DNA of 64,000 bases from Chiloscyllium plagiosum. Lineage: Eukaryota. Below are positions 21,047 through 63,633 of this stretch, piece by piece. The stretch spans positions 29,236,113 to 29,300,112 of the forward strand of contig NC_057724.1 in the NCBI RefSeq assembly GCF_004010195.1. The letters are read 5' to 3'. Below the pieces are notes generated by a model. It made no database searches. It worked only from the letters and a program-made list of their open reading frames with translations, and had not been told where the DNA came from. The translations under genes were made by a program, and so were the position numbers. Positions within the stretch are counted from its first letter, which is position 1. The number at the start of each line of letters is the position of its first letter.

Positions 21047-21109
21047 GTAAAGTAAGAAATGATATGCATTTTTGTGTTTGAGGCATTAATTAATCAGTGA
21101 ATTGGTAGA

Positions 21110-30843: not shown

Positions 30844-30892
30844 ATGTCCAGTGGAAAACAAGATGTGATCATCATTGGAGGGGGCTTGTCGG
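30844..30892 (+). CDS. Monoamine oxidase (flavin amine oxidase) exon 1: MSSGKQDVIIIGGGLS(G)
   Basis: Rossmann FAD motif GxGxxG split by a phase-1 donor G|gtgagt, as in vertebrate MAO genes. Confidence 0.9.
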
Positions 30893-31499
30893 GTGAGTGT
30901 TTTCTGATTCTACCTTTCAGTTGTGTCTTTCCCTCAAGTTGTCAGCACAATGTATTTAGTGCTGGAGTCGTTCAAAGGAAAAGCAGCTAATGCTTTCTGA
31001 ATGAATGCATTGTGCCCTAGGATAATAATTTAGGAAGCAATAAAGTGGATTCCGTTCATCCTACATTTGTAGATAATGGAGTTTAACACATATGAAAATG
31101 TGTGAAAATATATGATACTGTAGAATTTAATCATCATTTCTGAAAAAAAAATTCTTCCAAATTATTTGAATAACATTCAAAAGGAAAATGCTTTGATTTT
31201 TAAGCACTTTAGTTCTCATTTAGAATACAGACTTCATATATGTGGGAGCTGCACATACCATTGTATTGATCTATGCATTACAAGAAGACAATTATCTGCA
31301 GTGTTCTATTGGAAGCAGAACTACGAACAATTGATGTGCTATCAGAACATGTTACAGCGAGCACACATTCTATACAGATGTTTTATTTGTTGTCTTCCCA
31401 ATTATGATGTGTATTTTCACAAAACCTATGGATCTTCAGACTAATCCCTTCTGTACTCCATTCCCAGCAAGGCAATCTTTTCTCACTGTTCAAGCGTAC

Positions 31500-32235
31500 A
31501 GTTACTTTATTAGATTGAGTGTTGCAAATCACTGTTCTTGGTCCCCATTCCAAACTCCACCCTCTTGCTGACAACAGTCTAAGATCAAACAAATATCTTT
31601 GCTACCTTGGTACCATATTTGACCCTGAGATAAGTTTCCAACCAAACTGCCATGCTATCATTAAGGAAGCGTATTTCGTCCCCATGTCACCAAACTTCAC
31701 CCCTGTCTCATCTCATCTCATCTAATGCTGAAAACCTCAACTATACCTCTGTTATATCTTGCTTGATAATTTCAGTGCACTGCTGGCTGGTGTTCAATAT
31801 TCTAATATTATAGTCATCCAGACTCTGCTATTTCCATCTTGTAGCAAATCCTTGTGACAGCTCACTGGCCTCTACTGGATCCTGATCAAGTCATGTCTTG
31901 ATTTTAAAATATTCATCTTTGCTTTCAAATTCTTCCATGAATCCTTGCCCTAATTTCAGCAGCATAGCTATTCAAGATATCTGTTCCAATAGCTATTCTA
32001 ATTCTGACCTCTTGTGCATCCGTGATATGAACGTCTCATTATTGGTGGCTGAGTCTTCAATTGGCTATCTCCCTTTCCTTTAAGACACTATTTAAATCTT
32101 CCTGCTTCAACCAGGCTTTTGTTCATCTGATATCTATCATCTTCCTATGTGGTTCAATATAATATTTTGAAGTTCAAAGCTTATGGGAAGTGTCATTGTG
32201 TATTTTATTACATTAAAAGGCTGCTTATAAATAAA
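31500..32235 (+). mobile_element. L2-clade LINE 3' fragment
   Basis: accttgg..ccatatttgaccctgag (LG.IFD), gctgaaaacctc, tcactggcct...ttgattttaaaat and the tail attacattaaagg...tataaat are typical of L2 3' ends. Confidence 0.6.
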
Positions 32236-32842
32236 AGATTGTTCTTTTTAGATTAGAATTTGGCTCCAGATTATAGTCTCTTGTATGAAAGAAAAATGTC
32301 AAGAAAATATTGTGGAAATGAAGTGAACTTCAGGAGGACTGGCAGTGACGAGGAACCAGACTCTAGTCTGCTTCATGAAGATTTAAACAGCTTGTAGAAA
32401 ATGTAAACATTTCTATTGAATCATTATGGATGAATGGATTTGCAATTCATGGCTTAATTGGATATGGAACAGTTTAAAGAATTTGTCAAAATATCTCACT
32501 AATTTCCTATCTTTTGCTCCTGTGTTGACAATATAGAATGCCATATTATCTTGACATGGTAAACAGGAAGATACAATATTATGATTTTCAGGTATTAGAG
32601 TCTAGCCCAGATTGTTTCTAAACCAGCTTGAGATATATCTGGAGGATCTTAATTGAAACTGAGACCAAGAAATTTCTTGACCTAAAAGGATGTTTGGCTT
32701 TCTGATGAGGTACGATATACCTCAAATATGAAACCCTGTTTTCCTCCTAGATATTTTGTTTTAAACAATCCCACAGACCTGTGAGAAAATCTCAGAGATC
32801 TTTACAGGCACTGTCCCAAAAATGTAGTTCATGGATGAAGAA

Positions 32843-32992
32843 GATATGGAATGAGCTGCCAGAGGAAGTGGTGGAAGCTAGTACAATTGCAACATTGCAG
32901 GTGGGACTAGATTGGGTTGGGATATCTGGTCGGCATGGATGGGTTGGACCGAAGGGTCTGTTTCCATGTTGTACATCTCTCTGACTCTATGA
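32843..32992 (+). mobile_element. Short CR1 3' end
   Basis: WNELPEEVVEA and the same 3' UTR as 1-825. Confidence 0.8.
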
Positions 32993-36847: not shown

Positions 36848-39800
36848 TGGGGGTTTCAAGATGGTGGTGATCTAACAGGTCTGCCTTACTGAGCTCTGCA
36901 CTATAACCCAGGAAAGGTGGTGCTTTAAACCTCCACGTTTTATCTATTCTGGGAAAAATCGGTGATTTTAAGTGATTAGAATCACTATATATCCTTTTTA
37001 GTGAACTGGAAGGATGACTAAAGGCAAAAGGCCGGTGGATCACAACAAACTCCCCTGCAGCAACGGGCGCACCTGTGGCCGCAACGATGACCACTGTGGA
37101 AGCCCTGTTGGACTTACCTGCTCGGCAAAGCCTGGCTTTGGAGTTCATTAAAATCCGAGAAAAGATCGGGTCAGTGATGGAGGAGACCGGAACCAGGCTG
37201 GAACCGATCGCGGCCATGCTACAAAGGCATCCTCAGGAGATGCAACGTCTCGAGCAGCGTGTGGAGGAGGTTGAGCGGTGGACCGTGGCATCAGAGACCG
37301 CAGCTGAATCCTCGGCGGGATGGATCCAGGCTCTGGAAAAGCAGGTACAGGCCTTATTGGAGCAGGTCAATGACCTTGATTTTCAAGGTCGAAGAAATAA
37401 CATTTGTGTTATTGGGCTGTTGGAGTGAGAAGAAGGGAATTGGCCAGCCAGCTTTCTTAGGCAATGGCTGATTTGGTTTCTGGGATTGGAAGCCAAGGGG
37501 GGCTGGGTGCTGATCGATCAGATTCACCGGGTCGTGGTGTGCAGGCCTTGGTTGGACCGGCACCCCCGCCCAGTCCTAGTGCAATTCCAGTCTTATAGAG
37601 ACAAACAAAAAGTGTTGGAAGCTGCCAGAGCGCTGGGGAAGGATCCACAGGCCCTGATTTACAAGGGATCGAAGATTATGTATTTCAGGACTTTTCTGTG
37701 GTCGTGCTCCAGAAGAGAAAGACCTTTGATGAGGTAAAGAAGACGCTGAGGGATCTGGATATCCAGTACTCTGTAAGGTACTCGGCAGTGCTCCGTTTCA
37801 GCTATGGAGGGTCTGTACTTCTGTTTGATTAATGTTGTGAAACTTGAAAGGGTTCAGAAAAGATTTACAACGATGTTGCCAAGGTTGGGGGATTTGAGCT
37901 ATAGGGAGAGGTTGAATTGGCTGGGGCTGTTTTCCCTGGAGCGTCGGAGGCTGAGGGGTGACCTCATAGAGGTTTACAAAATCATGAGGGGCATAGATAG
38001 GATAAATAAAGTCTCTTCCCTGAGGTGGGGGAAGTCCAGAACTAGAGGGCATAGGTTTAGGGTGAGAGGGGTAAGATATAAAGGACACCTAAGAGACAAT
38101 AATTTCAAGTAGTGGGTGGTATGTGTATGGAATGAGCTGCCAGAGGAAATGATGGAGGCTAGTCCAATTGCAACTGGATGGGTATATGAATAGCAAGGGT
38201 TTGGAGGGATATGAGCCGGGTGCTGGTAGGTGGGACTAGATTGGGTTGGGATATCTGGTTGGCTTGGACGAGTTGGACCGAAGTTTCCACGCTGTATATC
38301 TCTATGACTTTGTGACTTTAAAAGGCAAAGGACTTTTTGGACACTTTAAAATAGACTGACTGTATCAAGCAATATGGACAATAATGTTTCTCCTTTGTTG
38401 TTGTTTCTTTCGTTTTGTTTTATCCCTTTACCTTTTTTTCTTTTCTCTTCCCTTTTCACTTTCCTAGGGTCTGGGAAGATTGTGGGAATTTTCGGTTTGT
38501 TTTTTCCAGCAATAAATGGAGGTCGATTTATGGGTGGGATGGGTGAAACGTCGACTTTTAATTCTTGTGCTTATAAGATTTATGTATTTTTTTACTTTTG
38601 TTTTGACTGAGTTTGTGGCACGGATTCAACAGAAGGAGCCATGGAAATGTGTGTGGGTAGTGTGAGTGCCTCCTATGGTCAAGGGAGAAGTCTCCTATTA
38701 TGTGTTTTTTGTATTGGTTTACTTAGTTGTAGTTTTTAAAAGTTTCGTTTTGGTAGTTTTTATAGATATGTTCTTCAGGCTCTATGAGTCTTTAACTGTT
38801 TCCAGTTGGCTCATTGTGAGTAGGGTTCTTTCTCGTGGGGGTTCACGGGCTGTTTTAGATGACTATGGTTAATTTTTTGTTTAAATGGTGCACCTGGAAT
38901 ATCAAGGGGAATCACTCACCGATTAGGGGAAATAAAGTACTTTCAAGTCTTAGGAAGGAGAGGGTAGATGTCGCTCTGTTACAAGAAACCCACCTTGATG
39001 ACAAGGGACATCTAACGTTGCAGCAGGTAGGGTTTGACAGGGTTTTTTTTCATCTTTTAATACCAAAATCAGGGGAGTGGCTATACTTATTCAGTTGTTA
39101 GATCAAATTAAAGATGAATATGTGTGGTTTGTGATTCTCAAAGCTTTAATACATGGAGGAATATGGAATTCTGAATGTTTATTGGTCCCCGGCACACCCC
39201 CTTAAATTTCTGAGGATGCACTCTCTAGATTGATTGCCCATGGTATGTGCTACAGGGGAAGACTTTAATTGCCTCATGGATCCCACAGTGGATAGGATGC
39301 TCAGGGGTTCCCAGTGCACCTTCTCTCAATCTAAACAATTGGTGGACTTATGTGTGGAGTTGGGATTTGTAGATGAATGGAGATGTCTTCACCCGGCGGG
39401 TATGGATTTCACCTTTTTCTCCAATCCACACAAGTGTTACACAAGGATTGATTTGTTTCTTGCTCCATCAGCTTTTTTGGATTCGGTGCTGTCCTGTAAA
39501 ATTGGGAACATAGCCATTTCTGATCATGCAGCAGTGTATTTGGAGATTAAGGCCAGGAGTAATGAGGTAGGTTCACGGCATTGGCACATGGATCCTTTCC
39601 TCCTTAAATATAGTAAATTTATGGAGTGCTTCTTGTGAGATTTTAAAACGTTTTTGGATATCAACTCATGCACAGCCAGCAACCCACCTGTGCTTTAGGA
39701 GACTGCCAAGACCTGCGCAAGGGGTATAATCATCTCTTATTCAGCTAATCAGAAACTACAGAAGAGAGAGCAGCAACATCTGCTCAAAGCCCGTCTGAAA

Positions 39801-42681
39801 GCAACTAAGACCGTGTACTTTGATAGGCCATCCATGATTAAGTTATAGTGAATCACAGTTTCCGGGCTGCTCTGAATTTGCGCTCACTCAAACAGCAAAG
39901 AGAGAGATCTCTTTCGCAAAACAAAGGTTGTTTGTGTATGGAGGTAGGCCAGGTAAATACGTGGCTTATTTGCCTAGGAAGAAGAACACTCCCCAGTCCA
40001 TCACATCTATCAGAGAGGGCACTGAGACTCTTACTTGCGACTCCAAAAAGATGAATATGGCTTTTAGGAAATTTTACACCAAGCTGTATCGGTCAGAGGG
40101 CTGGGAGGACAGGTTGGCAAAGAGGGTGTCCTCCTTTAAGAACCTGGACCTTCCAGGTGTGACTCCGGAGCAGGTGTCCCTTTTGAATGCTCCCTTGACA
40201 GTGCCAGAGAGGCAGTATGTAAGTGGTAAGGCACCCGGCTGTGTTTCATATAGGCCCATTTCGCTAATAAACTTGGATTCTAAAATTTTATCTAAGACAT
40301 TCGCATTCAGTCTAGAGAAGGTGTTGCCATTTATAGTAAAGGAAGACCAGACAGGTTTTATTAAAGGCTGTAGGTCAGCTAATAACATTAGAAGATTATT
40401 GAACATGGTCCAGCAGAAGTCAATTCCGGGCTTGGTGGTCTCCTTTGACACGGAGAAGGTGCTTGACTGTGTGGAATGGCCATATCTTTTTTATGTTTTG
40501 GAGTAGTTTGGTCTCGGTGGGGACTTTACCGGATGGGTGGAAGTGCTATATAGTGATCCTATGGCAGCAGTTCTTACTAATGGCTATAGTTCACGCTGGT
40601 GATTGAGGCTTTGGCGGAGGTTATTCGGAGGGACCCCAACATAGTTGTTCCCAAGGTGGGATCAGGGGCACATGAAATCACACTCTACACAGGTGATGTT
40701 CTCCTTTTCCTATCAAACCCGGCAGTGTCTGTGCTTCATTTAGTACAATGTATCAATTTATTTGGCTCTCGGGATATAAGGTTAATTTTATGAAGTCGGA
40801 GGCCATGCTCGTGAGGGGTCTTGGGGGAATGCCCATTCTTGAAGGTAAAATCCGATTCCCTTTCAGGTGGACACAGGGAGGTGTTCTGTACCTAGGCATT
40901 TTCATTACTCTAGCCATTGACCGGTTATATAAGGCTAACTTTGTGCACTTGCTCGGTAAGGTAAAGCAGGATCTTCAGCATTGGGAGGTTCTTCCAATAT
41001 CTTGGTTAGGCTGAAAAGCTCTTATTAAAATGAATGTTCCTCCTCACTTATTATATCCCACGCGAATGCTCCCTCTGATGATGCCAAGGCAAACATTATG
41101 GAGACGCAACAGTTGCCTCAGTTTTTTAATTTGGTATCACAGGCAGCCTCTCATTAAGCTTACCAAGTTGTAGCTTCCCCAGGGAAGTGTGATGGCGGTT
41201 GTGGTGGCGGGGTTGGGGGTTTGGTGGGGTGGGGAGTTGGGGGTGTGACTTTCCAGATATTAAGAGGTATCAAATAAACTCCCTACTATCCTTTGTGAAT
41301 GATTGGACTTGTGAGGATCCGAGGTCAATATGGCTGGATATTGAGGCCTCCCAGGTGAAGTGCCCCCTCATTAATCTGCTATTCATGGATAAGATGAGGA
41401 CAGACACAGAGTATTGTTGGAACCTAACTGTCATCAATACAGTTAAAGCGCTGAGAGTGATGCGACAAAGCAAGGGCAGTTTATCTAAAACCTTCTTTCT
41501 CAGTCCTACAGTAGGAATGCCAGAATTTCGGACAGCATTGAAGAACTCTGGTTTTTAGTTATGGACATCTAAAGGAGTCTCTTGTGTGGGAGATTTATTT
41601 GAGGGGGAGGTCATGATGTCCTTCGATCGGTTGAGTTGCAAGTATGAATTGCCCAGCAGGGACGTCTTTCGTTACTTTCAGGTCCGGGACTTCATCCTGA
41701 AAAAGACTACATTTCTGCTTGATCTTTATAGATCTGATGTAGAGAGGAAAGTGCTTCAGACTACAGGTACTCTCCCATTTAGCACCCTTTACCATTTACT
41801 TGGAGGTGGCACCTCAAAAGATATTGAGTGGCTGCATGGGGGTTGGGAGTGGAGATTTTGTCAGAGATATGGGAGGACATTTGGGAGAACGTGAGAAAGA
41901 TTGTGATCTGCAACAGAATGTTCATCTGGCATCAGAGCAGCTTGCAAAATTCAAAAAAGGAGTGTCTCCATTGTGTCCCAAATGCAAAGTAGGTATTATC
42001 ACTCTCACCCATTGTTTGTGGTCATGCCACAAGCTTTGCAAGTATTGGAGTGCTATAGTGAGTGTCATGGGGGGCTGTCCTGGGGACTGAGGTCAAGGTA
42101 GATCTGGTGTCTCTTCTCCTGGCCCTGCCAAATTTGCCTTCCTTAGATGAGCATGGGAAAAAGCTGTTTAATATTCATACATATTGTGTGAGGAAAAACA
42201 TTTTGGTGAGTTGAGCCTTGGAAAGCCCTCTGGCCCTACTGGGATGGTGTAGATTAGTTACGGAACACATCCCCCTGGACTTCCTTAAAAGTATGGTGCA
42301 CCAGAAAACAGAATTTTTCTACAAGATGTGGCGGCCCTTTCTGAACCACCTAGAAGCAGATTTATTGGCCATACTAACTAGGGTTTTTGTTCAGTCACGA
42401 GGCCTGGGTCTGATGAGCCAGGTGCCCTGAGAGGAAGAAATATGGGTATGCTAACTGATGCTTCCTGTGATGGAGAGCTTTGGTTGGGTTGTGCTGAGGG
42501 CTGTAATTTAACTTATGTCCAATTATTTATTGAATTGTAGTATGAGTTGCCTTTTTTTGTTATTATTTGTTTTGTAGAGTGGTAGTTAGTTTATTGTAGT
42601 TGTTGTTATACACTCAGATTGTTATACTTCATGTAATTTTATAATTTTGTAAAGAATAAAAATATTTCTCAATAAAAAAAA
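36848..42681 (+). mobile_element. Near full-length degenerate L1-clade LINE (5' UTR, ORF1, ORF2 EN-RT-Cys, polyA)
   Basis: 5' caagatgg start. ORF1 coiled coil + GRRNNICVIGL + PRPVLVQF. ORF2 motifs TWNIKG, ALLQETHL, RIDLFL, ISDHAAV, YRPISLIN.D.KILSK, DQTGF, CPKC..THCLWSC. aataaaaaaaa end. ggttgggag present at both flanks. Confidence 0.92.
37830..38318 (+). mobile_element. CR1 3' fragment inserted into L1 ORF1
   Basis: ORF 37804..38112 (ERVQKRFTTMLP...) and a ctctatgac tail. L1 ORF1 resumes afterwards (KAKDFLDTLK*). Confidence 0.9.
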
Positions 42682-43699: not shown

Positions 43700-44805
43700 T
43701 TTAAACAGAGAACAGTACAGCACAGGAACAGGTTCTCTGGCCCACTATAACTGTGTCGACCATGATGCCATTCCAGATTAATCACAACTGCCTACCTCTG
43801 GTCTGTTTTCCTCTATTCTCAACCTTCATGTTTCTGTCTAAATGGCTCTTGAACTTTGTTATTGTATCTGCTTCTACCACCTCCCCGAGCAGCATGTTTC
43901 AGATACCTACTACCCTCTGTAATAAACTTACCTCGCTCATCGCCTTTAAAACTATCCCGCTTTATTTTAAACCTATATTCCTCAATATTTGACATTTCCA
44001 CCTTGGGGAAAAAAAGTTCTGTGCGTCCACCCTATCTATGCCTCTCATACTTTTGTCAGGTCACCCCTCAGCATCTGATACTCTAGCAAAATCAATCCGA
44101 GTTTGTCCAATCTCTATGTTCAATTATAGTTAATGCACTCCAATGTAGGCAACATCTTGTAAACCTCTTCTGAAACCTCTCCAAAGCTTCGACATCCTTC
44201 CTACAGTTTGGCGACCAGAGTTGTACACAGTACTCCAAATGTGGCCTTATCTAATTGCAACATGACTTTCTAGTTTTTATACTCCTTGCCACGACCGATG
44301 AAGGCAAGCATGATGCAAGATAACCCTTTAGGAAGGATGTGATTGCAATGGTGGAATTGCAGTGGGGATTCACCAGGTTATTACCTGGATTAGCACAGTT
44401 TAGCTATGAAGAGAGGCTGGATAAGCTTGGGTTGAGTTTTCTTTAGAGCAGGGAAGGCGGAGGGAGGTTCCAGATTGAGGTGTATAAGCTTAGGAGGGAA
44501 ATGGTGAATAGAAAGCAGCTGCTCCCCGTAGTTGAAGGGTCAATAATGATGGAGTTAATTTCAAATGAAGGGCAGGAGGTTTAGAAGCAATATAAGGAAA
44601 AACATTTCATCCAGAATCTGGAATGCACTGCTTGGGAGGGCAGTACAGGCAGGAAACCTCCCAACCTGTAAAAAGTATGTGGATTTGCACTTGAAATATC
44701 ATAATATTGAAGACAATGGACCAAGTGCAGTAAAGTGGGATTAAGGTGGATAGGTTGGTATAGGATTAATGGGCTGAAGAGCTCTTCTGGGACTCTATGA
44801 CTCTA
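43700..44805. mobile_element. Two CR1 3' fragments: minus (about 43700-44310) and plus (about 44320-44805)
   Basis: RT C-terminal motifs and ctctatgactcta-type tails in opposite orientations. Confidence 0.7.
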
Positions 44806-44955
44806 ACAGCTGATAAATCTGTTGAATTAATAAGGGATGACTTTTAATTCATGATTGTTTGTATATGATCAATTTATTTTCTGGTCAATTCCAGGATTTT
44901 CCTTGGCGTGTAGGCCATCCTGTTCCCATCTTATACTGTTGTCTTTACTCACCAG

Positions 44956-45050
44956 GTCTTTCAGCTGCCAAACTCCTCATAGAGAAGGGCCTCAATGTGG
45001 TGGTTTTGGAGGCTAGAGATCGTGTTGGAGGAAGAACATACACTGTTCAA
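44956..45050 (+). CDS. Monoamine oxidase exon 2: (G)[31 protein letters not shown]
   Basis: Acceptor accag, 95 nt, [11 protein letters not shown] motif, donor CAA|gtaggt. Confidence 0.95.
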
Positions 45051-46367: not shown

Positions 46368-46505
46368 GGGCCGGAGTTCCAGTATGTTGACTTAGGAGGA
46401 GCATATGTTGGGCCTACGCAAAATCGGATTTTGCGTTTAGCAAAAGAGCTGGGTATAAATACATATAAAGTTAATGAGAAGGAACAACTGATTCACTTTG
46501 TGAAG
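46368..46505 (+). CDS. Monoamine oxidase exon 3: [46 protein letters not shown]
   Basis: Acceptor tttcttatag, 138 nt, donor AAG|gtaaaa. Contains the MAO motif [14 protein letters not shown]. Confidence 0.96.
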
Positions 46506-49327: not shown

Positions 49328-51059
49328 TTTTAAATACTAAAATGTTTCAGAATAAATAAAATGTTTATCTGTATGTTAAACCGTGTTAATGGAACCATTG
49401 TTAAAGCAATAGTAATTAAACTGGTTACTAGCAATGTATGATCTTAAGTTGAATTTAAATTTTGTGTCTTAAGAAAGGGAAGACATGGTTCATTTTCATT
49501 TTAGATTTGTGAGCCTAAGCTGTGTTGATAAAGTGCCTGCAGGTCTGTTTTGATTAAATGTATTTTAATGAGGTTTTACAAACTTATCCGACTCACTATT
49601 CACTTCAGCTCTTGAAGTCAACGGTTTTGTGCAATATTCCCTCTACGTTTAGTTGTTCTTCCATGGACTTCTGAATTCTTGGTCCATGTGAACAGAGCAG
49701 AAGTCATATGGTGGAAGGTGATCAAAGGTGCATGGGGTTTCTCAGCTGCTACATGAGCACCAACTGTGCAAATTCAGGGAGCATTGGTTCACTGCATGAC
49801 TAAACAAAAGAGAGAAATGAAAGAAAAATGCTGTCCCATTGCCTAGTGACATAGTTGCAGATATACAAAGATGTTGATCCAGGAAGACTCTTCAATCAAT
49901 GTGGCTGCATTGCAGCTGGAAGCTGAGTTTCGAAAACTCATGTATTTGTTCTGATTTAAAATCTTTTGTCTGGAGTTTATTTTAGGTATTTTGGGAAGGG
50001 GCAATCTTTTCAAAGGAAGGAAAGGAAGCATCTTCCAGCGACTGCATAAATTCACCTTAAGGAAACTGGTTGCAGCTATCCCAGCTGAGAATGTGCCAGG
50101 AGCTCTAGTGAAGAAAGTGGCGGCACTGTCCTGATGGTTAAGCCTTTGTAAGGATATTAGTGGGATAAAAGAAAGTGTGAAGTTGTATGTTTTTCAGATG
50201 TCTGTCATGAAATATTTCCAACATTTAATTTCATCTTGGGTGATATAGTTAATGGTTTTTCTTGTTTAATAAATGTTTATTCTCATTCTAAAGGTACACT
50301 GGCAGCCTTTTGTGATTGCATTCAATTACTTTCATGGTTTTAAAAAATGTTAGGATAAAACAAGACAGATTTCAGTTTGGGGTCTGACTTGTCCAGTATC
50401 AACATCTGTTCAGATCATTATAATCTCAAAAGGGAAATTTTGTTGTATTCTGCCTATGACTACTTTTATTTTTGCATTTTCATTTTAGAAAAAAAGAACC
50501 TTGTGTTTTCTTTCTTTTTTGAGGTAAATGCCAATGTATTTCTCCCACTGCTTTCCAAAGAGAAGTTGCCCTTTCAGGTCTTGTTTCTTGTTTTGTTGTC
50601 ATGGATGCACTATAAAAGTAAAAGCCCTGCAGCTAGGCTGTCATCTTTAATACATCAGTTTAGATGTGCTGATATCCAGCAATAATTCTTAAAAAGTTAC
50701 TCATTGCAAGACTGAGAGGCAATTTGTCATTGTACTTAGAGGATTATCTTCTTGCGTAAAACCAGCCCAAACATACACCTGTTATATGTTGGAGTTTATA
50801 TCAGGGTACACGAGATGACCATTTAACACCAACTAACTTTGCACAAGTAATTTGACAATGTATTGAAGTCGTAGGAAAATATGCATGGAATGAATGAGCA
50901 GTCATTAACTTCTGCAGATATCCACTCCATTACTCATTTCTTATGTGCATTGCATGTTATTATGTGACGTTACGGAAACTGACACTTTGTACCTGGCCTG
51001 TAATGGACATCTGTTGTACTGTGTTGTATTGCAGAATTCTGTTGTACAGTGGGATTCTG

Positions 51060-52410
51060 GCAGGTGAGTCTCAAAGTTAGTATGCAGGTACAGAAAGTGA
51101 TTGGAAAGAGAAATGGAATATTGTTGTTTATTGCACGGGAGTGGAGTCTGAAAATAGAAATATTGTGTTACATATCATTAGTGAAATCACATCTGGAGTT
51201 CTGTACATGGTTTTGATCTCCTTATTTAAGGAAGGATTTACTGTAAATGCATTGTGAACAGTTCAGATAATGTTTATTTGACTGAGACCTGGGGACTATG
51301 TTATTGGACAACTTAGTAAAGTTGGGTTTGTATCCTTCAGAGTTTAGAAGAATAAGAGGTGATCTTATTGAGAAATGGATAGAGTGGATGCTTCAAGAAT
51401 GTTACTCCTTGTGGAATAGACTGGATCTAAGGGACACAATTTTAAAATAAGGGGACTTCTTTTATGGTAGAGATGAGGTGAAACATTTTCTCTCAGAGGG
51501 TTTGAATCTTTGAAACACTGTTGTCCAGGAATTGGTGAGGGCAAATAAACTAGTTTTCTTCGGGTTTTAAGTACTTTAGCTGCAGAGAGAAATACACTAC
51601 CTTCCTACCCAGCCTGCAAAGGCTTTTGGCTATCTTGTTCACACCCACAACCATTCTGCTGCCTGGGAGCCAATCACATTGTTTATGGCAGGCAGAATGT
51701 CTTTGTCATCTCCTGCTCCTCGAATGCTGCCTGGCCTGCTGCGCTTTTCCAGCACCACACTTTTCAACAAATATGCAGGTTAACATACAGGTTCAGTTGG
51801 CCGTTAGGGCAACAAATACAATTTTAGCATTCATTTCAAGAGGGCTAGAATACCAGAGGAGGGATGTACTGTTAGGGCTGTATAAGGCTTCCATCACAAC
51901 ACATTTTAAATATTAGGCCCTATGTCTCAGAAACGATGTGCTGGCCTTGGAGGGGGTTGAGAAGAGCTTTACAAGAATGATCCCAGGGATGAAGGATTTG
52001 TCATATGAGGAGTGGCTGAGGGTCTTTACTCGGAATTTAGAATAATGAGGGGGGATCTCGTTAAAACTTACAGAATACTGAGAGGCTTGAATACAGTGGA
52101 TGTGGAGAAAATGCTTCCCCTAGTAGAAGACACTTAGGACTCAAGGGAACAGCTTCAAAGTAAAGGCATGACCCTTTGGAACTGAGATGAGGAGGAATTT
52201 CCTCAGTCAGAGAGTAGGACTCTCTGTGGCAGAATGCTGTGGAGACAAATCTCTCTTTAAGTCAGAGATAGATAGGCCTTAATTAGAGCAGGGATCAAGC
52301 TTTATGGGCAGAAAGACAGGAGAATGGCATTGTGAAACATATCAACCGTGATTGAATGGTGTAGCAGTCTTGATGGGCTGAATTGCCTAATCTACATTGC
52401 TCCTATGGTC
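51060..52410 (+). mobile_element. Two CR1 3' fragments (about 51060-51545 and 51770-52410) separated by a short Penelope-end fragment
   Basis: Degenerate RT C-terminal DNA; ORF 51626..51916 ends ILAFISRGLEYQRRDVLLGLYKA. Confidence 0.7.
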
Positions 52411-52419
52411 TCATTTGAT

Positions 52420-53350
52420 TTGATTTTTACTGTCACATGTACTGAAATACTTTGAGAAGTATTGTTTTGTGTGCTATCCAGACAAATCATACCTTACGTA
52501 AGTATATCAGGGTAATAGAACAAAATGTAGAATATAGTGTTACAGCAAACAAGAAGGTGCAGAGAAACATCAACTCTAAATTTTGAGAGGTCCATTCATA
52601 AATCTGATTACAGCAGGTAAGAAGCTGTTCTTAAATCTGTTGTTACATGTTTTCAAACTTTTGCATCTTCTGTCCAATGGAAGAGGGTGGAAGAGAGTGT
52701 AACTGGGGTGGGAGAGGTCTTTGATTGTGTTGGCTGCTTCCTCAAAGCAATGAGAAGTGTAGATGGAGCCAATGGAAGGAAAGCTGGTTTTTGAGATGGA
52801 CTGGGCTGCATTCACAACTCTCTGTAATGTCTTGCGGTCCTGGGCAGTCGCCATACCAAGCTGTGATACATCTGGATAGGATGCTTTCTGTGGCGCATCA
52901 ATAAAAGTTGGTAAGAGTCCATGTGGACATGTTGAATTTCTTTGGCCTTCTGAGAAAATAGAGGTATTCGTGTGCTTTCTTGATTGTAGCTTCGACGTGG
53001 ATGGACCGGGATAGATCATTGGCGATATTTACTCCTAGGAACTTGAAGCTCTTGACCACCTCAGCACCATTGATACAGACAGAGACGTGGCCTCTACTCC
53101 GCTTCCTGAAGTCCTTTGTTTTGCTGACATTGAGGGAGAGATTATTGTCTTTATGCCACACCACTAAGCTCTCTACCTCTTTCCCGTACTGTGTCTTGTC
53201 ATTGTCTGAGACTCAAGCCACTACTGTGGTGTCATCATCAAATTTAAAAATGGAGTTAGAGCTGAATTTGACCAAACAATCATGAGTGTACAAGGAGTAT
53301 AGTAAGGGTCTGAGTACCCCACAGTCTTGCAAGGCACCAGTGTTGGGGAT
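52420..53350 (-). mobile_element. Rex1/Babar-type LINE 3' part
   Basis: ORF fragments WHKDNNLSLNVSKTK, SFKFLGVNI..DL, YLYFLRR.KKF, LQRVVNAAQSI, RFKNSFLPAVIR. Confidence 0.8.
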
Positions 53351-54871
53351 TATGGTCTTATGGTATCTGTCCATCTGCAGTTAACTGCCCCCAATGCTTG
53401 AACAAGCAACAGTATAAGCAGCACTTAATAAAACCATTGGTAGCTTATTCCCCTTTCAGAATTATGAGTTTTGAAAGCAGTTCCTTTGTCTTTTCAGTCC
53501 CCAGTCAAAACTACAGAAAAAAATTAAAGGATACCGTCTTTACAATCAACAATGTTCTTATTGGGTGGCACAGCAGGCTTGAGGGGCTGATGGCTACTCT
53601 TGCTCATAATTTATTAGTTCATATATTCTATTTTAAAAGTATAGAGTATTGGATTTTAAAATGTGGCTCCATTGATTAAAGACTGACCAACTTTTCATAA
53701 TTATGCAATCAGTTGTGGGAGAATTGATTGAACTCTAAAGTATTTGAGACCATTCATGAAGAATGAATCAGTTTTATAGTCATGTAGTTTGTTTTGTGAA
53801 TGGTATTACATACCACAATCCTGTTGTACATGTATCTATTGTCAATGTTTTGTACAGTATTATAAGGGATTGATCCATATATCAGTATTTGTGTTAGGGA
53901 TACATATTTGTGTTTATGGATCATGTGAAAAACTGAAAGATATTGAACTGTTTGGACACTACTTGAATTTAAAAGTGTTTTTGCCAATAGTTTGAAGGGA
54001 TCCAAGTTCTATCTTAGTAATGCGTTCAATAGTTTAATGTGGGCTATGATCTACCTGCTGCTGACAGAAAGTTGAACAACTTTTGAACACAACCCAACAA
54101 AGCTTTGAGGGTGATAAGAAGTGGAGTTTGTTTCCCTTATTTGATGGAAAACCTGTCTTTGGAAGACACTATGGGTCCACTGTGCTAATGGTTGCAGAGC
54201 AACTCTTTCTGGATATAATTTCTGTTCCACAAACCTGGAGAATTAGTAGGAAAATAGCCTTAAAAGCAGTAGTAAGAGTGCAAGTCTCACTCTCCTCCCC
54301 CCAGTCCCCTCAAACTGCATCCCCTCCCTCTCAACTGAAGAACTTGAAAATTGATAAAGCTTTCGCATCTCAGTATCTTGACTATCTTGTACACCCTGAG
54401 AAGCTGATCTGTGGCCATTATCCAGACACTTGGACCCAATTTCAATGCAATCTAAACCAAAGCACTGTTTAGAAGATTCTCTGTCACTAAGTCATTTTAT
54501 CAGCAAGAAATGAAGTGGACTATGAGAATTCATCAAATTCTATCTTTTGCTTCTCAGACCATTGGTCAATAAGGGTATTTTTCTTTTGTCATTTTAAAAA
54601 TATCATCTGTACAAAGTCTTTGTTATTTTTTGTATTTTGTTTTATGGAATTAAAAGGGGATCTAGTTCTAATTTGGGGTTATAGCTTCAACATTAATCAG
54701 TTTTGCCACTTGTATTTAGGGATGAGCTTCATTGTACGTTGGGAATACATTTCGATATTTAGAGACAAACTAAAAAGAAACTGGAAAGTTTTGATATGTA
54801 CAGTATTTTGTAGAATGAAGAGGGTTTCTTCCCATAACATTTCTTAAAAATGAATCCAATGCTTTAATATG

Positions 54872-55045
54872 TTAGCGATTTTTGAGAAGATTTGTAGCTC
54901 AGGTTGATGATAAGCATGTAAGTTAGCTCGCTGTGCTGGAAGGTGTGTTTTCAGATGTTTCATCACCATACTAGGTGACATCATCAGTGACTTCTGGTGA
55001 AGTGCTGGTGGCATGTCTTGCCTCTCTATTTATACATCTTGGTTT
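54872..55045 (-). mobile_element. Further Penelope-type terminal repeat with hammerhead-like core
   Basis: Reverse strand at 54952-54989 reads ca-CTGATGA-t-gtcacc-tagtat-ggtgat-GAAA-catc-tg. Confidence 0.65.
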
Positions 55046-57059
55046 CATCAATGGGAAATCTAACAGACATAAGAGGTCATCACATTTCAATTTTAGTCTC
55101 CTGACACTTGACCCTTTTGCTATTTTGCCCTTTTAAAGAAAAATACATAATTTCTGCAGAAACTCACCTTTTGTGCTGTGTGAGTATATTTGTATTTGGG
55201 ATTAAGGGGATATATTTTAATGTTGGATCACAGCTTTGGTGTTAAGTAGGGTTTGTAAGTAGGGAATAAGTATTGTTCATAGTAAGTGGATTGTTTCATG
55301 ATCTTTAAAGAAGAGTGGTGGGCATTTCTTTTATTCTGGATGGTAGTACAAAAGGGAAGTTATTGGATATTTTTGAAATTGAATCAGTAAGCTAATGGTC
55401 CAACCGGTGGAGTAGTGGGACTTGACTATCAGTTCATTCCTCCCATCACAGTGATAGTATTTATTCTGAGTTGATTATGTTGAGTTCATTAAAAAAGCAT
55501 GGTGTAAGTCTTTTGTATTTTGGATAATAATACCAAAGAGAGAAAAAAAATCGACCATTTTGGTGATTAGGTACAAGGCATTAATACCAATGGTGTGCCT
55601 CATGGAGAATTGGGACTTCATTATTTGTGTACTCTTCCCATCCGAATTGAAACAGCTGATAACAATGATTACAGCTGTTCTGCTTACCTGTTACACAGAT
55701 CCCACATCGAAATGAATTCAGTAACAAAGATACTAGAATGACCTTCTGTCTCCTCTACATGTTACTTCAATGTTACTGACCAAGATTGTGATCTTTGTTT
55801 GGTGAATACAGACCTATAACATGCAGGGACTTAAAATCTGCCCATCAGTAGCAGAGAGTGGAGGACACTGGTACCTGTTACAGAGGACTAACCATGACCT
55901 TTAACATCTGCCAAAACGTAAATGATGCTTTTGCTATGTAAGATATATTAGATATGAATTAATACATATGAATTATATGTATGAAATGAAGCTTAAAACA
56001 TTAATTAATGTAAAAATTTGAAGTTTTAAACGGTATTATATCCAACGAACCCTAAAACTCAGACCTTCAATATTTACAATTCTGTTCAACCTTCATGCAC
56101 TTACTCTCTCCCTGACTGGAGTAAATATGTATCACAAGTTTCAACAGTAATGTAATTGTAATTGGCTGTTTTCACATATGTTTTTTGCATTCAGTTTTTA
56201 AAACCAGAGAAAAAATGGTTGGTTACTTCTTGCCTGTTTCCTATCTTATAGCACTGTTTTTAAACTAACTGAAATCTACAATAACCTATGAGTGACCACC
56301 TGAACTCTACAAAAAGTGTATCGCTGTGTGGCTGACTGATAAGTCCAACAATAGTGAGAACCCGTCACTGTGTGATTGAGTAATTGAACCAAATGGTATT
56401 GAGACTCCATTGTATTGCTGACTGAAGAGTTCTATATGATTTACTACATCTGTAATAGTGTGGCCCTGTTAGTGTGCAGCTGTTTGATGACCCCTGATAA
56501 TGTGGCATCAATGAAAATATTTTTATATGTTTCCTGTGTCTGAACATGAATAAAAAACCTCGAACAGAGAAATGAAACTAGTCTAAGTGACATGATAGCC
56601 CCTTTCTGATGATGAATCAGGGAGTAAACCAGAGACAGTGGCTAAATTAGGATTTGGAGTTATATTATAGCAGTAAACGCAGGGATTGTTCTCCCATATG
56701 AGTTACGGTTTCCCTGCTATGTACTTATGGAGTCCTGTTTCCAGGCAAGACAGCATTGGCAAGGAGCCTGCAACTTCCTGCTTACTGGATCCACTGATAA
56801 GATGCTGATGCCATGTCACATATGGTGACATTTCTGATGATAACATTGTTGAAATTTCTGATAGATTAGCGTCTGTATCCTGTTGCCTTTGGAACAGGCT
56901 GTTGTTCCTGTTTGAGCAAGTACCAGTTGCTACATACATTTGTTTGACCCATGTTCCAATGGTATCAAGGATTAATTTCACAAACAATAAATGCTCTCCT
57001 TGCATTTTCTTAACTTCTTAGAATTTACAAATTAACATAACAGAAAAGAAATGCTCACA

Positions 57060-58300
57060 GGCAGAATTTCCCATTTTTAATTAAAGTGATTTGCGGAGTG
57101 ACATGGGTACTACCTGGTCCGTCAAGGCTGAGAGTGACATTTCTTAGGCGATCTTCACCTCATCCATTAGGATATTGAACTTTTGGTCTTCTTTTCTGGG
57201 AAATCATGCAACTGAGAGGCAGGATTGCTGGCCCCTGCCAGGAACCCCTACTACCCCCTCCCAACTTTGCAGTGTCCATATCTCAGGTGCTGTATTTACA
57301 GCTCTGCTACATGCCTCTTCCCATGTTGCAAATTAGGAACGGCCCCTCACACTGTGGGGCTTGTGCTATCATTGAGACATGACTCAGAAGAAAGGAAAGC
57401 TCATCCCCTGCTTCAAAGAAAGAGGCCTGGAGGCCTCACTGTCAGGCTGGTGCAGAGGAGGGCATTTCATTTTCCTGCAGACTGCCACATCTCCTGAATC
57501 AGTTTGGACACAATTCGCAGTCTGGATGAAGTGGACACTCATAGTGAATGAAGAAACTCGATGCTCAGTCCTGGTAAATGCCACCTCACTCTAATTCTGC
57601 CACTGCACCCTTCTCTCAACAAGTCTCATTAACTACAACTCTTCCACATCATGTCCACTCAACAGCTCCTACCCACCATATCCTCCCTTCCTGCCAGCTA
57701 CACTTCCGACATGGTAACTGGAGACAACACGCCACTTCTCCAGGTGATCTGCAGGACTAACCAAGGCCCAATCCTTGGACTGCAAGGACACAGATCCCCA
57801 GACTTTAGTTGGACCAAGTTCTTGACTGACTGTAGTGACAACTCTAACTGACTGGAGTCCACCTCTTATCCCCACTGAAGTTTTCTCCCCTTTCCACTTC
57901 ACACATGGCCATTTGGTTGAAGTACATGCGTATGTTTACCATTTAATCTACTGGCAAATGCCATAGCTGTGAACTTGACACAGCACAGTCCCACACAGCA
58001 ACATGTCCACCTTTTTGACTATTCAGTGCTCACCACTGTGACAGATAGCCTGCCTCTTCCTCCATATAGAAAAGTAGTGCAGGACATAGAGACTAATAGC
58101 CTGTAAATGACCTGTACACTAACGCAATGTGATGAAAGATCAAGGAGGATGGTCACCATAGAAGATGTGGTGACATTATTGTGAAGAAATAGTTTCATGA
58201 TGGCCAGGACAAGTATTTGGTGAGTTGCAGCTGCCAGGTACCCACTCTGATTAACGTATTGGGAATTTGCTGTTACCCAGGCAAGGAACAGAGAATTGGA
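57060..58300 (+). mobile_element. Possible PIF/Harbinger relic (Myb/SANT-like ORF remnant)
   Basis: Weak resemblance of KGKLIPCFKERGLEASL... and VWTQFA to the Myb/SANT-like protein of Harbingers. No TIRs resolved. Confidence 0.3.
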
Positions 58301-59559
58301 ATTGGTGTCGAAATAGATTGATTAAACACTCAATGATAGTATTTAAGTTGTCATCATTAAGGAAGCCTGAAACTTTCCCTTTCCCAGTTTACCTTCACCT
58401 TTAAACAACATTCTAACATTTACCTCATTGTTGGGGACCATTCAATCTGATTCCAGATACAGTCTCCAGCCACCATTCCCACCTCACCTGGGTCCTCCTG
58501 GGAAATAGGCCAGAGTCCTCCTTCAATTACTTTGATGAGGTTCAAAATTTTCAGAAGTGTTAGAGCCCTTACTGACTTTCCATTATTTTTATTATATTCT
58601 TTTATCGATTTTAGTTTGAGCAAAATATGACTTTTGTACTGAAGGAAATAGCTTGTGACCAAACAAGTTTTTGCTTATTCGTGAGGCCAGACTTGGAAGT
58701 TAATTGCAGGTCGGTACCTGATCAAATGGCTCTGCAGATGCTTTGTCACTGGAGAAGAGCATTAAGTTTAAACAGACAGCAAAAGTTGGCTATTAAAGAG
58801 GTCAGAAGCTAGGAATTGGTCCTGGCAAATCTGGAAAATAACTTATGCTCAAGCAGATGCCAGTTGTTGAAGGGTAACTTGGGATCTTGTGAAGGAGATG
58901 ATCAGTCTGTCAGGGAGGGGTCAGAGCTTGAATTGGATTTTGGACTGTGTTGCAGTGAGAAAGAATCTGGCTGTTGATGCTACAGCATGAAGATTTGAAA
59001 GCTCCTTTCCTAGCCTCACTTATCAGCTCATGGAATTTCAGAGATTGGAAAATAGAGTTATAAATATTACTACCTTTATCTAAGTGAACTGTAAAAGTGA
59101 CCCCAATAGTCATCTTCAGAAAATCAACCAAGAAATCCTCATCTATGCTTATAGAACAACAAATCATGAAAATGATTTAAGCAATCTGTCCACTTTTGTT
59201 ATTTTAGTTTATTATTCCCTTAACTGTGTTTGTTTGTTTATCTGTCTTTTGTGTGAATGGTGCTGAAAACATACGTTTTTTGGGTTTATAACAGAGACCA
59301 AATAGATTACTTAGTAATTTAATTTTTGCTCTGTTAAATTTGCTGTATTAAATTGTTAAGTCCTTTGTTTAAAATACAAATTGGTGTCTGAAATTGATTA
59401 TTTGCAGAGCCTGGGATTGTTTATTTACAAGTTAGGAACTATTGAGAATTTTTCAGGATCTTGAAGGTTTTAATTTAACTGTATTGCAAATGCAGAGGTA
59501 AAGAGGTTGATTTAGTTCAGCTATCTGTCTCTATGTCATAACAGGGGGCTGAAGGATTC

Positions 59560-61250
59560 CAGTTTACTTTGGTTCTCATTTGCACTGATCTTGCTCATCT
59601 TTAAAATCACCATGATCATCAAGTAATTAAACCATAATCACAACTGTGTACATGCTCCCATACTTTTACATCACTTTGAATACTATGATTCATTCCTCAT
59701 GACTAGATCCAATAAGGAATATTTTCTTGCGGGGTTGTTTACATTTTGGGTTAAAAAGAGTCTGAGACACACTTGTGGACATCTATTCCCCCATCGCCTT
59801 TACCTACCTCTTTTTAAATGCTAACTAATTAATATCAGAGTGATTGAAATCCTCCATAATTATTTTTCTTGTTTTATTAAATTCCTTAAATTTCCTGCAT
59901 ACTTCCTCCTCAATGTCTCACAGGTTGTCTGTCGACCACACCTATAAAAGTATTAACCTTTTATTACAATTTACTTGCATGCTTACGGGTTTTATTTTTG
60001 ACTTGCTGAAAGTTATCTCCCTTTTTTTGACTGCTGTTATGATATGCTTAAGTATGGATACTCCATCTCCAATTTTTACCTTCCTACCTTTTAAAAATAT
60101 TTTATGACACACAATGTTTAATTCCCAACTGTAATGTTTCTGTAGTCGTGTCTCAGTGATCAATATCTCCTTCCTGTCAATGTGATTGCCTCCAGCTCCC
60201 TGTTTCGTTATGAACACTGTATACTGTTGTACACATGATTTAATTTATTACAATAAGATTTCTATTATGTTTTGTCTAACCATATTTCTAAAATGATGTT
60301 CTATAACTATTTATTTCTGTGCTATTACCGTTTCCCTTATTTAAGGTGAAACTCTTTCCTATGTTCATCTTTCGTGTTTTCATTTAAGCACTTACTTTTC
60401 CAGTAGATTCCTCCTCATCCTGTCTTGCTAGCTTAAAGCATTTATCACTTTCCTTTTTACAAGTGTACAGGTTCCATCCCACTAATACAAATTATTTTTG
60501 TCCCAGAGCTGATTTCAATGGTTTTTGTAAATGTTTTCCCACCCCAGTCCTTTGGACGTTTATTAATTCTCCTCATCTGTCTGCTCCGATGTCAAATTCC
60601 ATGTGACTTGTGGAAGAATCCAGGGAATAAACTCTCGAGGTTCTGTCTTTTAAAATAAAATCTAAATTCTCTTTCAGAAGGACCTCCTGCCTGTTCCTGC
60701 CCATAACATTAGTCCCAACTCTTCCCTTTCCAAGATCCTCTCCAATTGCTGTAACATATTTCAGGACAACAGTAAGTAGGCAGCATGCCCTTTGAGATTC
60801 TCATTCGTGGCTGCTGAGACTACTGTCTTTCTTCTGCTATCATCCCCCTGTTGCTACTAAATTTATATTCTATTCCCTGCCTTGGACAGTCTTCTCAGCC
60901 ACGGTGCATTGGTCTGCATTGTAGCTTGCTCCCTGTAGCCCTTCTCCTTGCTCTCACAGATAGTGACTACATTGTATCTAGTGTATCTAGTAGAAGAACC
61001 TCCTACTCAATATTTCCTAAATCTCTGATCCCTGTAACTCTCTATCAGCAACACTGACCCTTTCCTGAACCTGTGTTTTCATCTGTTGTATGACTGGAAA
61101 AAAGCTCTTCAGAAATTTCTCTCCCTCCCTTATGTGTTGGTGTCTTTCTATCTTGCTTTCCAGCTCATGACTCTGAACTGGAGAGATTCAATGTGAAGCT
61201 ATCTCCCACATTCTGCTGTCCAGGCACACAACATGCTCTGTCATAACTTA
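59560..61250 (-). mobile_element. Old CR1 5' region (ORF1/endonuclease) remnant
   Basis: ORF 59942..60217 has ILITETRL...ELNI...IFLKGRKVKIGDGVSIL, an endonuclease-like segment. Confidence 0.55.
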
Positions 61251-61943
61251 GACTAGCCTTAATAAAAATCAAAGTCTTTGTTTGATTATTATATTATGTA
61301 TTAATTGATGTAGTTTAACTAGTTAGGCTATAAATTTATGCCTTTAGAAGAGCTCAAGTTCCACTTTGAGAGCATGTGGGTAGATGAATCAGAAACAGTT
61401 TAAAGCTAATATGAACAGGTTGCTAAAAGATTCTGTGTTACTGAGTGATGGATATTCAGTTCAGTAGTGAGATTTTCCAAGTAACAGGTACTTATTCAAT
61501 GTTGTATTCTGCCTCCCTATGTAAAAGATGCCTGTCTGATGCAATATTATGCAACTTGAGTAACAATTATATATTCAATGCTGTGTTGAAAATCTCTGAT
61601 TAATGAATATATTCTGCATAGTACTGCATGTCCATGTGTAACTGTACATAGCCAGCTCATTAACACTTACTTAATGAAGACACATAGTGCTGCTATATAT
61701 GAGGGTTGGATATTTTAATGTTTCTTTGAGTAACAACTACCTTTCCAACACAGTAGCATATAACTTTAGTATAATGGGATGTAACTGAGCACAGTACTGT
61801 ATTTCACTAACATGCACACATCCAGTACAGTACTATGGATGTCTGAATATTAGATACATGCACACTCAAGATGTCTCTGAGTACTTATACTGATCTAGCA
61901 CATTGAATTAAGTTTTTATTGCATTTACTGACATCTTTTGCAG

Positions 61944-62048
61944 GGGAAATCTTACTCATTTAAAGGGCCATTTCCTCCTGTGTGGAACCCTATTGCTTAC
62001 TTGGATTACAACAACCTCTGGAGGACATTGGATGAAATGGGAAAGAAG
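61944..62048 (+). CDS. Monoamine oxidase exon 4: [35 protein letters not shown]
   Basis: Acceptor ttttgcag with a ctgac branch point, 105 nt, donor AAG|gtaaca. Confidence 0.96.
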
Positions 62049-63541
62049 GTAACAAATTTGCTTCTTTCCCAAAGTAAGTGAAGTTAAGGCACCATAGTTC
62101 CATCTCATTAGGGAGAGACAATTGCGATGGTTTAACCTGAGAGTCACCCCTCCTTGGGGAGGGGAGAAGTTGAGAAGGAGGGACTTTTGTGATGACCTTA
62201 TCTGATGTAGGAATTGAAACTACACTGTTGGTATAATGCTATGTCACAAACCAGTCATTCAACCAACTGAATTAACTAACACCCAAATTATTCTGTGTTG
62301 GAAAGATTCAATGTCTTTTTTACTGCCTGCGGTGTTGTGATTCTTGCTCTTTTGTAGATATGCATTCAGTGAGATGTGAAAATGCATTCTATAAGCTGTG
62401 CGGGTCATCAACCTGCTGGATTCACTAAGACCCTCCTGGGAGCTGCTTGAAATCTTTCTGGTTGATACAAATCTGGGGTTTACATCAGGCGGACACAATG
62501 ACATAATGATGTAACCACCAACTCTGAAAACCTCGGGGAATCTGGCAATTTAGAAACATTTGATGGTCCAGAGCCATGTGTTTGAACAGTACTTTATCAG
62601 ACTGTGTGGATTCTGGGCAATGGAGATATTGTCGCCTTGTGTTATGGAGGAATGCATAGCAAATTTGCTGAATTGATAGAAGTTAGATCAGAAATTCTGC
62701 TAAGGTTTTCTGGAATGAGCATATGGCAAAAAGGCTGATAGCGGTAACCCTGTTCTGTGCTGCAGTGAGAGGTGGCTATACTGTGATTGAAATCCAACCT
62801 CTTGTGCCACATTTCAAAGACTTTAAAAAGCATGAATTGATATGTTGATCCTAGGATGATCAGGCTTTTTCCTAGTGCTATCTGCTTCATCTATTTTGTA
62901 TCACAATCTCTACTAATCTTCCTCTTCAACATTTAGTTCCACTTAAATTGTGATTTCCATTTGGAAACCTCTTCTGCAATCATCAGATCCTCACTGAGTG
63001 ACTGCATTGAAATTAAATAACTCCCAAGAGTAATGGAAATTTGCTGAGTATAGAGTGAATAAAATTCCCCAAACCTGCTGTGGGTCCCAAGATATGGCCA
63101 TAACCAGGTTTGAACAATATCTTTCCAATCAATTACAATTGTTGTGACAAAATGGTGCTTCCAGATTATGTTTTTATAAACACTTGCATGCATTCTCAGG
63201 GTATTTAAAGATTATACAATTTTGTCCTAGCTCTGTCAGTTGCTTGTGGCTGCTACTGAGAAGACAGGGACTTCATCAATCATCTGAAACTGTGCAGAGT
63301 TTAAGCCAATGCCAACCGAATCTCAACCCTGCCAGAAATCTCTGGCCTTACAAAAGGTTAATTTCTAACTTTTGATTTCACACAAACCTACAGTTTTGAG
63401 GCCAGTTGGCAGAGGTAGAGGTCTTTTTTCATCTCTCTGCTGGGTTGGGTTGTTAAGCAAATCTCAGAAGTGAAAAGAAAGTGTCCGAACTAAGCCCCAT
63501 AAGGTCTGCTTTTAGAATGATCATTAATTTAATACTGTTAG

Positions 63542-63633
63542 ATTTCTGCAGATGCACCATGGAGTGCTGAACGTGCAATGGAGTTGGATAACATGACCAT
63601 GAAAGAGTTAATTGATAAACTTTGCTGGACAAG
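63542..63633 (+). CDS. Monoamine oxidase exon 5: [30 protein letters not shown]
   Basis: Acceptor ctgttag, 92 nt, donor AG|gtaagt. The gene continues beyond the window. Confidence 0.93.

What the first reader, a model, noticed from the sequence alone, without database searches (positions are those of the whole stretch)
30844..63633. Monoamine oxidase gene next to BRCC3/CMC4: candidate extra MAO paralog absent from the mammalian locus
Seen: five exons with MAO-type sizes and phases (49, 95, 138, 105, 92 nt) begin 5.5 kb after the BRCC3 stop. The junction [16 protein letters not shown] differs from the TYT.RN...YVD of MAOA/B. Established: human MAOA/MAOB lie at Xp11 near NDP/FUNDC1, whereas BRCC3/CMC4 lie at Xq28 near FUNDC2/VBP1 with no MAO. 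Inference: this is an ohnolog on the sister paralogon, retained in sharks and lost in mammals, possibly with different substrate or inhibitor specificity. From memory, a fish-restricted MAO clade has been reported, so novelty must be verified.
Basis: partly seen in the sequence, partly recalled or inferred. Interest (0 to 1): 0.7.

Follow-up and report, generated by a model that had tools for sequence, protein, structure and literature searches.

The report
Shark monoamine oxidase F, already published
These five exons start an intact shark gene whose protein is identical to a published monoamine oxidase F, a fish copy of the amine-degrading enzyme reported lost in land vertebrates, so the gene is ordinary; its likely origin in an ancient whole-genome duplication is the main point the papers read here do not state.

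Summary
Five exons (49, 95, 138, 105, 92 nt) start 5,480 bp after the BRCC3 stop. Ten more follow beyond the window, giving an intact 519-aa protein identical to P0373 (XP_043560518.1). Merello Oyarzun et al. 2025 (PMC11833248) list that accession as MAO F (MAO C in the table), next to CMC4/BRCC3, so the gene is already known. In my trees it groups with tarpon MAO F (100/99), sister to MAO A/B. A separate A/B gene lies on contig C12 beside EFHC2-type exons, which rules out simple translocation. FAD cysteine, aromatic cage, oxygen lysine and a membrane-anchor-like tail are present. Two small additions: (1) both genes lie between a FUN14 gene and a CASK/MPP1-type gene, in the same order and orientation, which supports a whole-genome-duplication origin that the paper does not mention; (2) the shark gate is Phe/Leu, not the Phe/Met of the assayed tarpon enzyme. 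A third, deeper shark MAO lineage exists elsewhere in this genome. This scan had already noted MAO F and the third lineage in other genomes.

The parts
30844..30892 (+). MAO F coding exon 1 (ATG, GxGxxG dinucleotide-binding start)
44956..45050 (+). MAO F exon 2 ([10 protein letters not shown])
46368..46505 (+). MAO F exon 3 ([11 protein letters not shown]; Tyr61)
61944..62048 (+). MAO F exon 4
63542..63633 (+). MAO F exon 5; exons 6-15 lie beyond the window at G000:C15:29301486-29340377
10731..25364 (+). BRCC3 neighbour, start codon to stop (JAB and BRCC36_C exons)
7700..9130 (-). CMC4 neighbour, two coding exons, head to head with BRCC3 (lower end approximate)
37018..42087 (+). Broken LINE-like element in intron 1 (ORF1-like, endonuclease-like and RT-like fragments; identity recalled from the translations, not scanned)

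Best explanation
This is the 5' third of the shark monoamine oxidase F gene, an intact 15-exon gene whose 519-aa product is identical to a published MAO F protein; it is predicted to be a mitochondrial outer-membrane flavoenzyme that oxidises amines, and it likely arose from MAO A/B's ancestor by whole-genome duplication. Shown here: gene structure, identity, clade, neighbours and active-site residues. Inferred from human MAO A/B and tarpon MAO F (PMC11833248): FAD is bound covalently at Cys398; the amine sits between Tyr399 and Tyr436 and is oxidised to an imine that hydrolyses to an aldehyde; O2 reoxidises the flavin near Lys297 and gives H2O2; residues 492-510 anchor it in the membrane. With Phe200, Asn173 and Leu327 the cavity should be MAO A-like: tyramine, phenethylamine, dopamine and serotonin accepted, benzylamine poor, clorgyline-sensitive. 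No shark enzyme assay was found in the papers read.
For: Identity: the assembled protein equals P0373 at 519 of 519 residues; P0373 is XP_043560518.1, which stands in the MAOC column of Table S1 of PMC11833248. The paper gives CMC4 and BRCC3 as the 5' neighbours in bony and cartilaginous fish and Chr15/Chr12 for the two shark loci. Tree: with 41 rows, F (12 rows) 100/99, A/B (20 rows) 100/99, F+A/B 99/98; same split with 85 rows. A shark-only duplication is rejected, p-AU 8e-71. Second gene: a 15-exon MAO on C12:40.456-40.608 Mb falls in A/B and is 68.7% identical over 502 aligned residues. Paralogon: C12 (-) reads FUN14 40.79-40.80 Mb, DM10 exons 40.69-40.77, MAO A/B, CASK 39.52 (74.9 bits to CASK, 46.6 to MPP1). 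C15 (+) reads FUN14 29.225-29.229 Mb, CMC4/BRCC3, MAO F, MPP1/CASK-type 29.53. PMC5526904 reports FUNDC1/2 as strict ohnologues. Residues and tail; best solved structures are human MAO B and A, E about 1e-250. Splicing: one contig of run X1 (RNA is a guess; about 97% alike, so a relative) joins exon 14 to exon 15, its 30-nt loose end matching exon 14 at 30 of 30 letters.
Against: The duplication origin rests on three gene pairs in one genome. The C15 guanylate-kinase exon favours MPP1 over CASK only narrowly (48.5 vs 44.2 bits). The two FUN14 genes were named from their neighbours, not from a tree. My trees held no lamprey MAO, so the timing comes from the paper. The paper reports that lungfish and coelacanth MAO F lack the conserved neighbours. 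I did not locate NDP on C12 (that stretch has 7,072 N). The shark gate differs from the only assayed MAO F (Leu vs Met), so tarpon kinetics may not carry over. In run X2 the contig runs into intron 14 without a splice.
Confidence: 0.93

Rival explanations
1. The gene is the ordinary MAO A/B orthologue, moved next to BRCC3/CMC4 or placed there by misassembly.
For: It is about 64-69% identical to tetrapod and fish MAO A/B (draft model with exons 9-10 not yet corrected) and shares the exon plan of the A/B gene.
Against: A separate A/B gene lies on C12 beside EFHC2-type exons. The window has no N. A sturgeon gene model fuses BRCC3 and MAO F sequence, which implies the same adjacency there (P0013). 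The paper reports the same neighbours in several fishes.
Confidence: 0.01
2. It is MAO F, but it arose by a local or segmental duplication in the jawed-vertebrate ancestor, not by whole-genome duplication.
For: Only three pairs were tested. EFHC2, CMC4 and BRCC3 have no partner on the other side. The paper speaks only of 'a duplication event'.
Against: The pairs are co-ordered and co-oriented on two contigs of 88 and 81 Mb. FUNDC1/2 are listed as strict ohnologues. The lamprey's single gene is sister to both clades.
Confidence: 0.15
3. It is a chondrichthyan-specific duplicate of MAO A/B, unrelated to bony-fish MAO F.
For: Sharks keep Leu at the gate like their A/B gene, unlike ray-finned MAO F.
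Against: The AU test rejects one clade of cartilaginous-fish F + A/B (p 8e-71). F monophyly is 100/99.
Confidence: 0.01

Closest known systems
MAO F (MAO C in the preprint) of non-tetrapod jawed vertebrates; Merello Oyarzun et al., Genome Biol Evol 2025, PMC11833248; bioRxiv 10.1101/2024.08.20.608864
   Same: The same protein is in their sequence table. Same 5' neighbours CMC4/BRCC3, same clade, Phe at the first gate position, Met at the position of human MAO A Ile325.
   Different: Nothing at the level of membership. The assayed tarpon enzyme has Phe/Met at the gate and this one Phe/Leu. The paper does not discuss whole-genome duplication.
MAO A/B of fishes, and human MAO A (PDB 2z5x, 2bxr) and MAO B (1gos)
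   Same: FAD cysteine, Tyr-Tyr cage, oxygen lysine, Gln, hydrophobic tail. Same exon plan as this genome's A/B gene, with which 16 of 19 tabulated cavity positions agree.
   Different: Sister clade on another chromosome. Gly-Pro in place of Asn-x at the exon 2/3 junction. It lacks the MAO B features Ile199, Tyr326 and Cys172.

Membership tests
MAO F | Falls in the clade of non-tetrapod sequences sister to MAO A, B and A/B | tested here: met
   (100/99, includes tarpon XP_036404314.1)
MAO F | CMC4 and BRCC3 on the 5' side | tested here: met
   paper
MAO F | Coexists with a separate MAO A/B gene at the EFHC2 locus | tested here: met
   C12 gene and DM10 exons; NDP itself not located
MAO F | GABRA3/GABRB4 on the 3' side (bony fish; partial in cartilaginous fish) | tested here: inconclusive
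   The 80 listed ligand-gated-channel matches on C15 lie at 2.1-3.8 Mb, none near 29.3 Mb; the list is a floor, and the paper calls the 3' side only partly conserved in cartilaginous fish
MAO F | Phe/Met gate as described for tarpon | tested here: not met
   Phe200/Leu327 here. Met in 7 of 7 ray-finned F rows, Leu in 6 of 6 shark and ray rows and 2 of 2 lobe-finned rows, Ile in chimaera. It is a ray-finned trait, not a clade definition
Vertebrate flavin monoamine oxidase | FAD-linked Cys, Tyr-Tyr cage, oxygen-site Lys, GxGxxG | tested here: met
   Cys398, Tyr399, Tyr436, Lys297; Pfam Amino_oxidase E 1e-82
Vertebrate flavin monoamine oxidase | C-terminal membrane anchor | tested here: met
   Most hydrophobic 19-mer at 492-510, mean 2.1, followed by a basic tail; a hydropathy prediction only
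Vertebrate flavin monoamine oxidase | Amine oxidase activity, covalent FAD, mitochondrial location | not testable with these tools
   Activity, bound FAD and mitochondrial location were shown for tarpon MAO F; not for a shark
MAO A / MAO B / MAO A/B orthologues | Falls inside the A/B clade at the NDP/EFHC2 locus | tested here: not met
Whole-genome-duplication ohnologue pair (MAO F with MAO A/B) | Flanked by other paralogue pairs on sister chromosomes, with matching age | tested here: inconclusive
   Three co-ordered pairs support it; no chromosome-wide map or dating was run

The most novel reading that the evidence does not exclude
MAO F and MAO A/B are sister products of a vertebrate whole-genome duplication, preserved in the order FUNDC - MAO - CASK/MPP1 on two shark chromosomes. 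The shark enzyme keeps the ancestral Phe/Leu gate, so the slow, deprenyl-blind behaviour measured in tarpon MAO F is a ray-finned innovation tied to the Leu-to-Met change, and shark MAO F behaves like MAO A/B.
Probability: 0.3. Interest if true: 0.3.

Novelty: already known. Interest (0 to 1): 0.12.

Why it matters
As a discovery it matters little, because the gene, clade and neighbourhood were published in 2025. Two remaining points are useful. The duplication origin would explain why the human FUNDC2/CMC4/BRCC3 region has no MAO: it would be the emptied sister locus of MAOA/MAOB (human gene order recalled). The Leu/Met gate difference gives a cheap test of what made tarpon MAO F slow and insensitive to deprenyl.

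Tried and rejected
Expression in the window's own species was not shown. No listed holder was on record as RNA. Laying four runs on window 44001-64000 was swamped by intronic repeats and showed no exon junction among the rows printed. The two single-cell runs gave 0 reads on the last exon and 3' region, from about 2% and 6% of each run, which is no test. NDP was sought on C12:40.59-40.69 Mb by motif, by cysteine-rich ORF scan and by Pfam Cys_knot, and was not found. The first exon-4 boundary and the first exon 9/10 boundaries were wrong and were corrected. Turtle and frog hits named 'B-like' or 'A-like' were considered as possible tetrapod MAO F; all 18 tetrapod rows in the tree fell in A/B. 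One search listed only the best 120 of 4,347 hits, so loss in tetrapods is not proven here. No structure prediction was run, since the protein aligns end to end with solved human MAOs. Print searches for the duplication origin: plus term look-ups in the paper ('WGD' 0, 'ohnolog' 0, 'whole-genome' once in a reference) and in the preprint ('genome duplication', 'paralogon', 'FUNDC', 'CASK', 'ohnolog' all 0). Subscription papers and the preprint's supplements were not visible.

Full report
Observation. Human MAO A and a primate MAO B hit exons 2-5 at 47-77 bits; 20 of 20 shuffled windows gave at most 28.5 bits. BRCC3 runs from 10731 to a stop at 25364, and CMC4 lies head to head with it on the minus strand. 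The MAO start is 5,480 bp after the BRCC3 stop. The window holds no N.

Whole gene. The window is G000:C15:29236113-29300112. Ten further exons lie downstream to C15:29340377. The 15 exons span 73,422 bp and encode 519 residues without a break. The product equals P0373 at every residue. P0373 is XP_043560518.1, labelled Chiloscyllium plagiosum by its source.

It is published. Merello Oyarzun et al. 2025 (PMC11833248) describe MAO F in lungfish, coelacanth, bony and cartilaginous fish, sister to MAO A, B and A/B, flanked 5' by CMC4 and BRCC3, and lost in the tetrapod ancestor. Their Table S1 lists XP_043560518.1 under MAOC, the preprint name, and Fig. S1 gives Chr15 and Chr12 for the two shark loci. 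I read parts 1-4 of 7 of the main text, term passages and part 1 of 2 of the supplement. Of the preprint I saw term passages only. Of Goulty et al. 2023 (PMC10244343) I saw 12 of 13 passages.

Phylogeny. In a 41-row tree (LG+G4, bootstrap/SH-aLRT) the window protein sits with zebra shark, inside a 12-row clade that includes the tarpon enzyme assayed in the paper (100/99). A/B forms a 20-row clade (100/99), and the two are sisters (99/98). An 85-row mixture-model tree gave the same split, with all 18 tetrapod rows in A/B. Rows were chosen by hand; partial and redundant proteins were left out, and no lamprey sequence was in hand. Forcing all cartilaginous-fish F and A/B rows into one clade is rejected (p-AU 8e-71).

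Second gene and paralogon. A second 15-exon MAO lies on C12 at 40.456-40.608 Mb (minus), with the same coding sizes for exons 1-14 and 68.7% identity over 502 residues. It groups with shark A/B. Pfam FUN14 matched at two places only, among 4 matches from 9 candidates: C12:40.79-40.80 Mb (-) and C15:29.225-29.229 Mb (+). DM10 exons of EFHC2 type lie at C12:40.69-40.77 Mb. Guanylate-kinase exons lie downstream of both MAO genes: C12:39.52 Mb (-), clearly CASK (74.9 vs 46.6 bits), and C15:29.53 Mb (+), narrowly MPP1 over CASK (48.5 vs 44.2 bits). Both chromosomes therefore read FUN14, MAO, CASK/MPP1-type in one direction. PMC5526904 states that FUNDC1 and FUNDC2 are strict ohnologues in the Ohnologs database (passages and part 1 of 2 of section 12). 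I infer a whole-genome-duplication origin at about 80%. The MAO F paper and preprint do not use those terms, and two targeted searches found no other paper on it. Against it: three pairs only, no dating, NDP not located, and no ligand-gated-channel match listed near the 3' side.

How it likely works. Aligned to human MAO A numbering, the protein has Tyr61, Asn173, Phe200, Gln207, Lys297, Met317, Leu327, Phe344, Cys398, Tyr399 and Tyr436. The roles of the cysteine, cage, lysine and gate are those given in the paper; the choice of the other tabulated positions is recalled. The tail has a hydrophobic 19-mer at 492-510. The best solved structures are human MAO B and A at E about 1e-250. By inference it is an outer-membrane FAD enzyme that turns amines into aldehydes and H2O2. 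Tarpon MAO F is mitochondrial, acts on all six amines tested, barely on benzylamine, reacts with clorgyline and not deprenyl, and is several-fold to tens-fold slower than tarpon A/B. The shark protein shares Phe and Asn with MAO A but has Leu at the second gate position. Met is there in 7 of 7 ray-finned F rows, Leu in 6 of 6 shark and ray rows and 2 of 2 lobe-finned rows, Ile in chimaera; 13 of the 14 rows labelled AB have Leu. Leu is thus the likely ancestral state. Met at the Ile325 position is the better clade mark: 15 of 16 F rows and 0 of 34 A/B-side rows. The shark's two enzymes differ at only 3 of 19 tabulated positions, so any division of labour may lie more in expression than in chemistry (inference).

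The junction. All 16 F rows have Gly before the exon 2/3 motif and 15 of 16 have Pro after it; all 34 A/B-side rows have Asn. Several invertebrate MAOs and the third shark lineage have D-P or G-P. The motif is useful for sorting but is largely ancestral.

Expression. One contig from run X1 (RNA is a guess; about 97% alike, a relative) enters exon 15 from exon 14, its loose end matching exon 14 at 30 of 30 letters. A contig from X2 runs into the intron instead. Nothing was shown for the window's own species.

Seen in passing. A third MAO gene is present in pieces: an exon 2 on C21:51.897 Mb, exons 3-5 on C84245 and later exons on C92591. That the pieces form one gene is inferred. Relatives exist in four other sharks (P0214, P0215, P0216, P0245). 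P0215 is about 48% identical to both F and A/B, has a different cavity and ends in -SKL. It falls outside F+A/B among invertebrate sequences on long branches; a single clade with F and A/B was rejected (p-AU 3e-7, LG+G4), a test that shares any long-branch pull. None of its accessions is in the vertebrate sheet of Table S1.

Verdict. A real, intact gene, and an already known one: shark MAO F. Interest 0.12.

Noticed in passing
G000:C84245 (L050), C92591 (L049, L020), C21:51896857-51896964 (L091): A third, deep MAO lineage in sharks, about 48% identical to both MAO F and A/B, with a different cavity (Gly/Ser and Tyr/Phe/Cys at the gate) and a C-terminal -SKL. It falls outside the F + A/B clade and is absent from the paper's vertebrate table.
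   Followed up: partly
G000:C15:29528778-29528993 (L096) and C12:39522329-39522457 (L097): MPP1-type and CASK guanylate-kinase exons lie downstream of MAO F and MAO A/B, co-oriented with them.
   Followed up: yes
Protein P0013 (sturgeon gene model): An annotation that fuses the BRCC3 C-terminus to MAO F; probably a merged model of the two adjacent genes.
   Followed up: partly
window 37018-42087: A broken LINE-like element in intron 1, with another repeat fragment inserted near 37.8-38.3 kb.
   Followed up: no
window 63549-63551: A second AG lies 10 nt inside exon 5; its use would shift the frame. No evidence that it is used.
   Followed up: no
MAO F clade: Among teleosts MAO F appeared only in eels, tarpon and bonytongues, both in my best-120 list and in the paper's table. 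This hints at a second loss in clupeocephalans; not tested.
   Followed up: no
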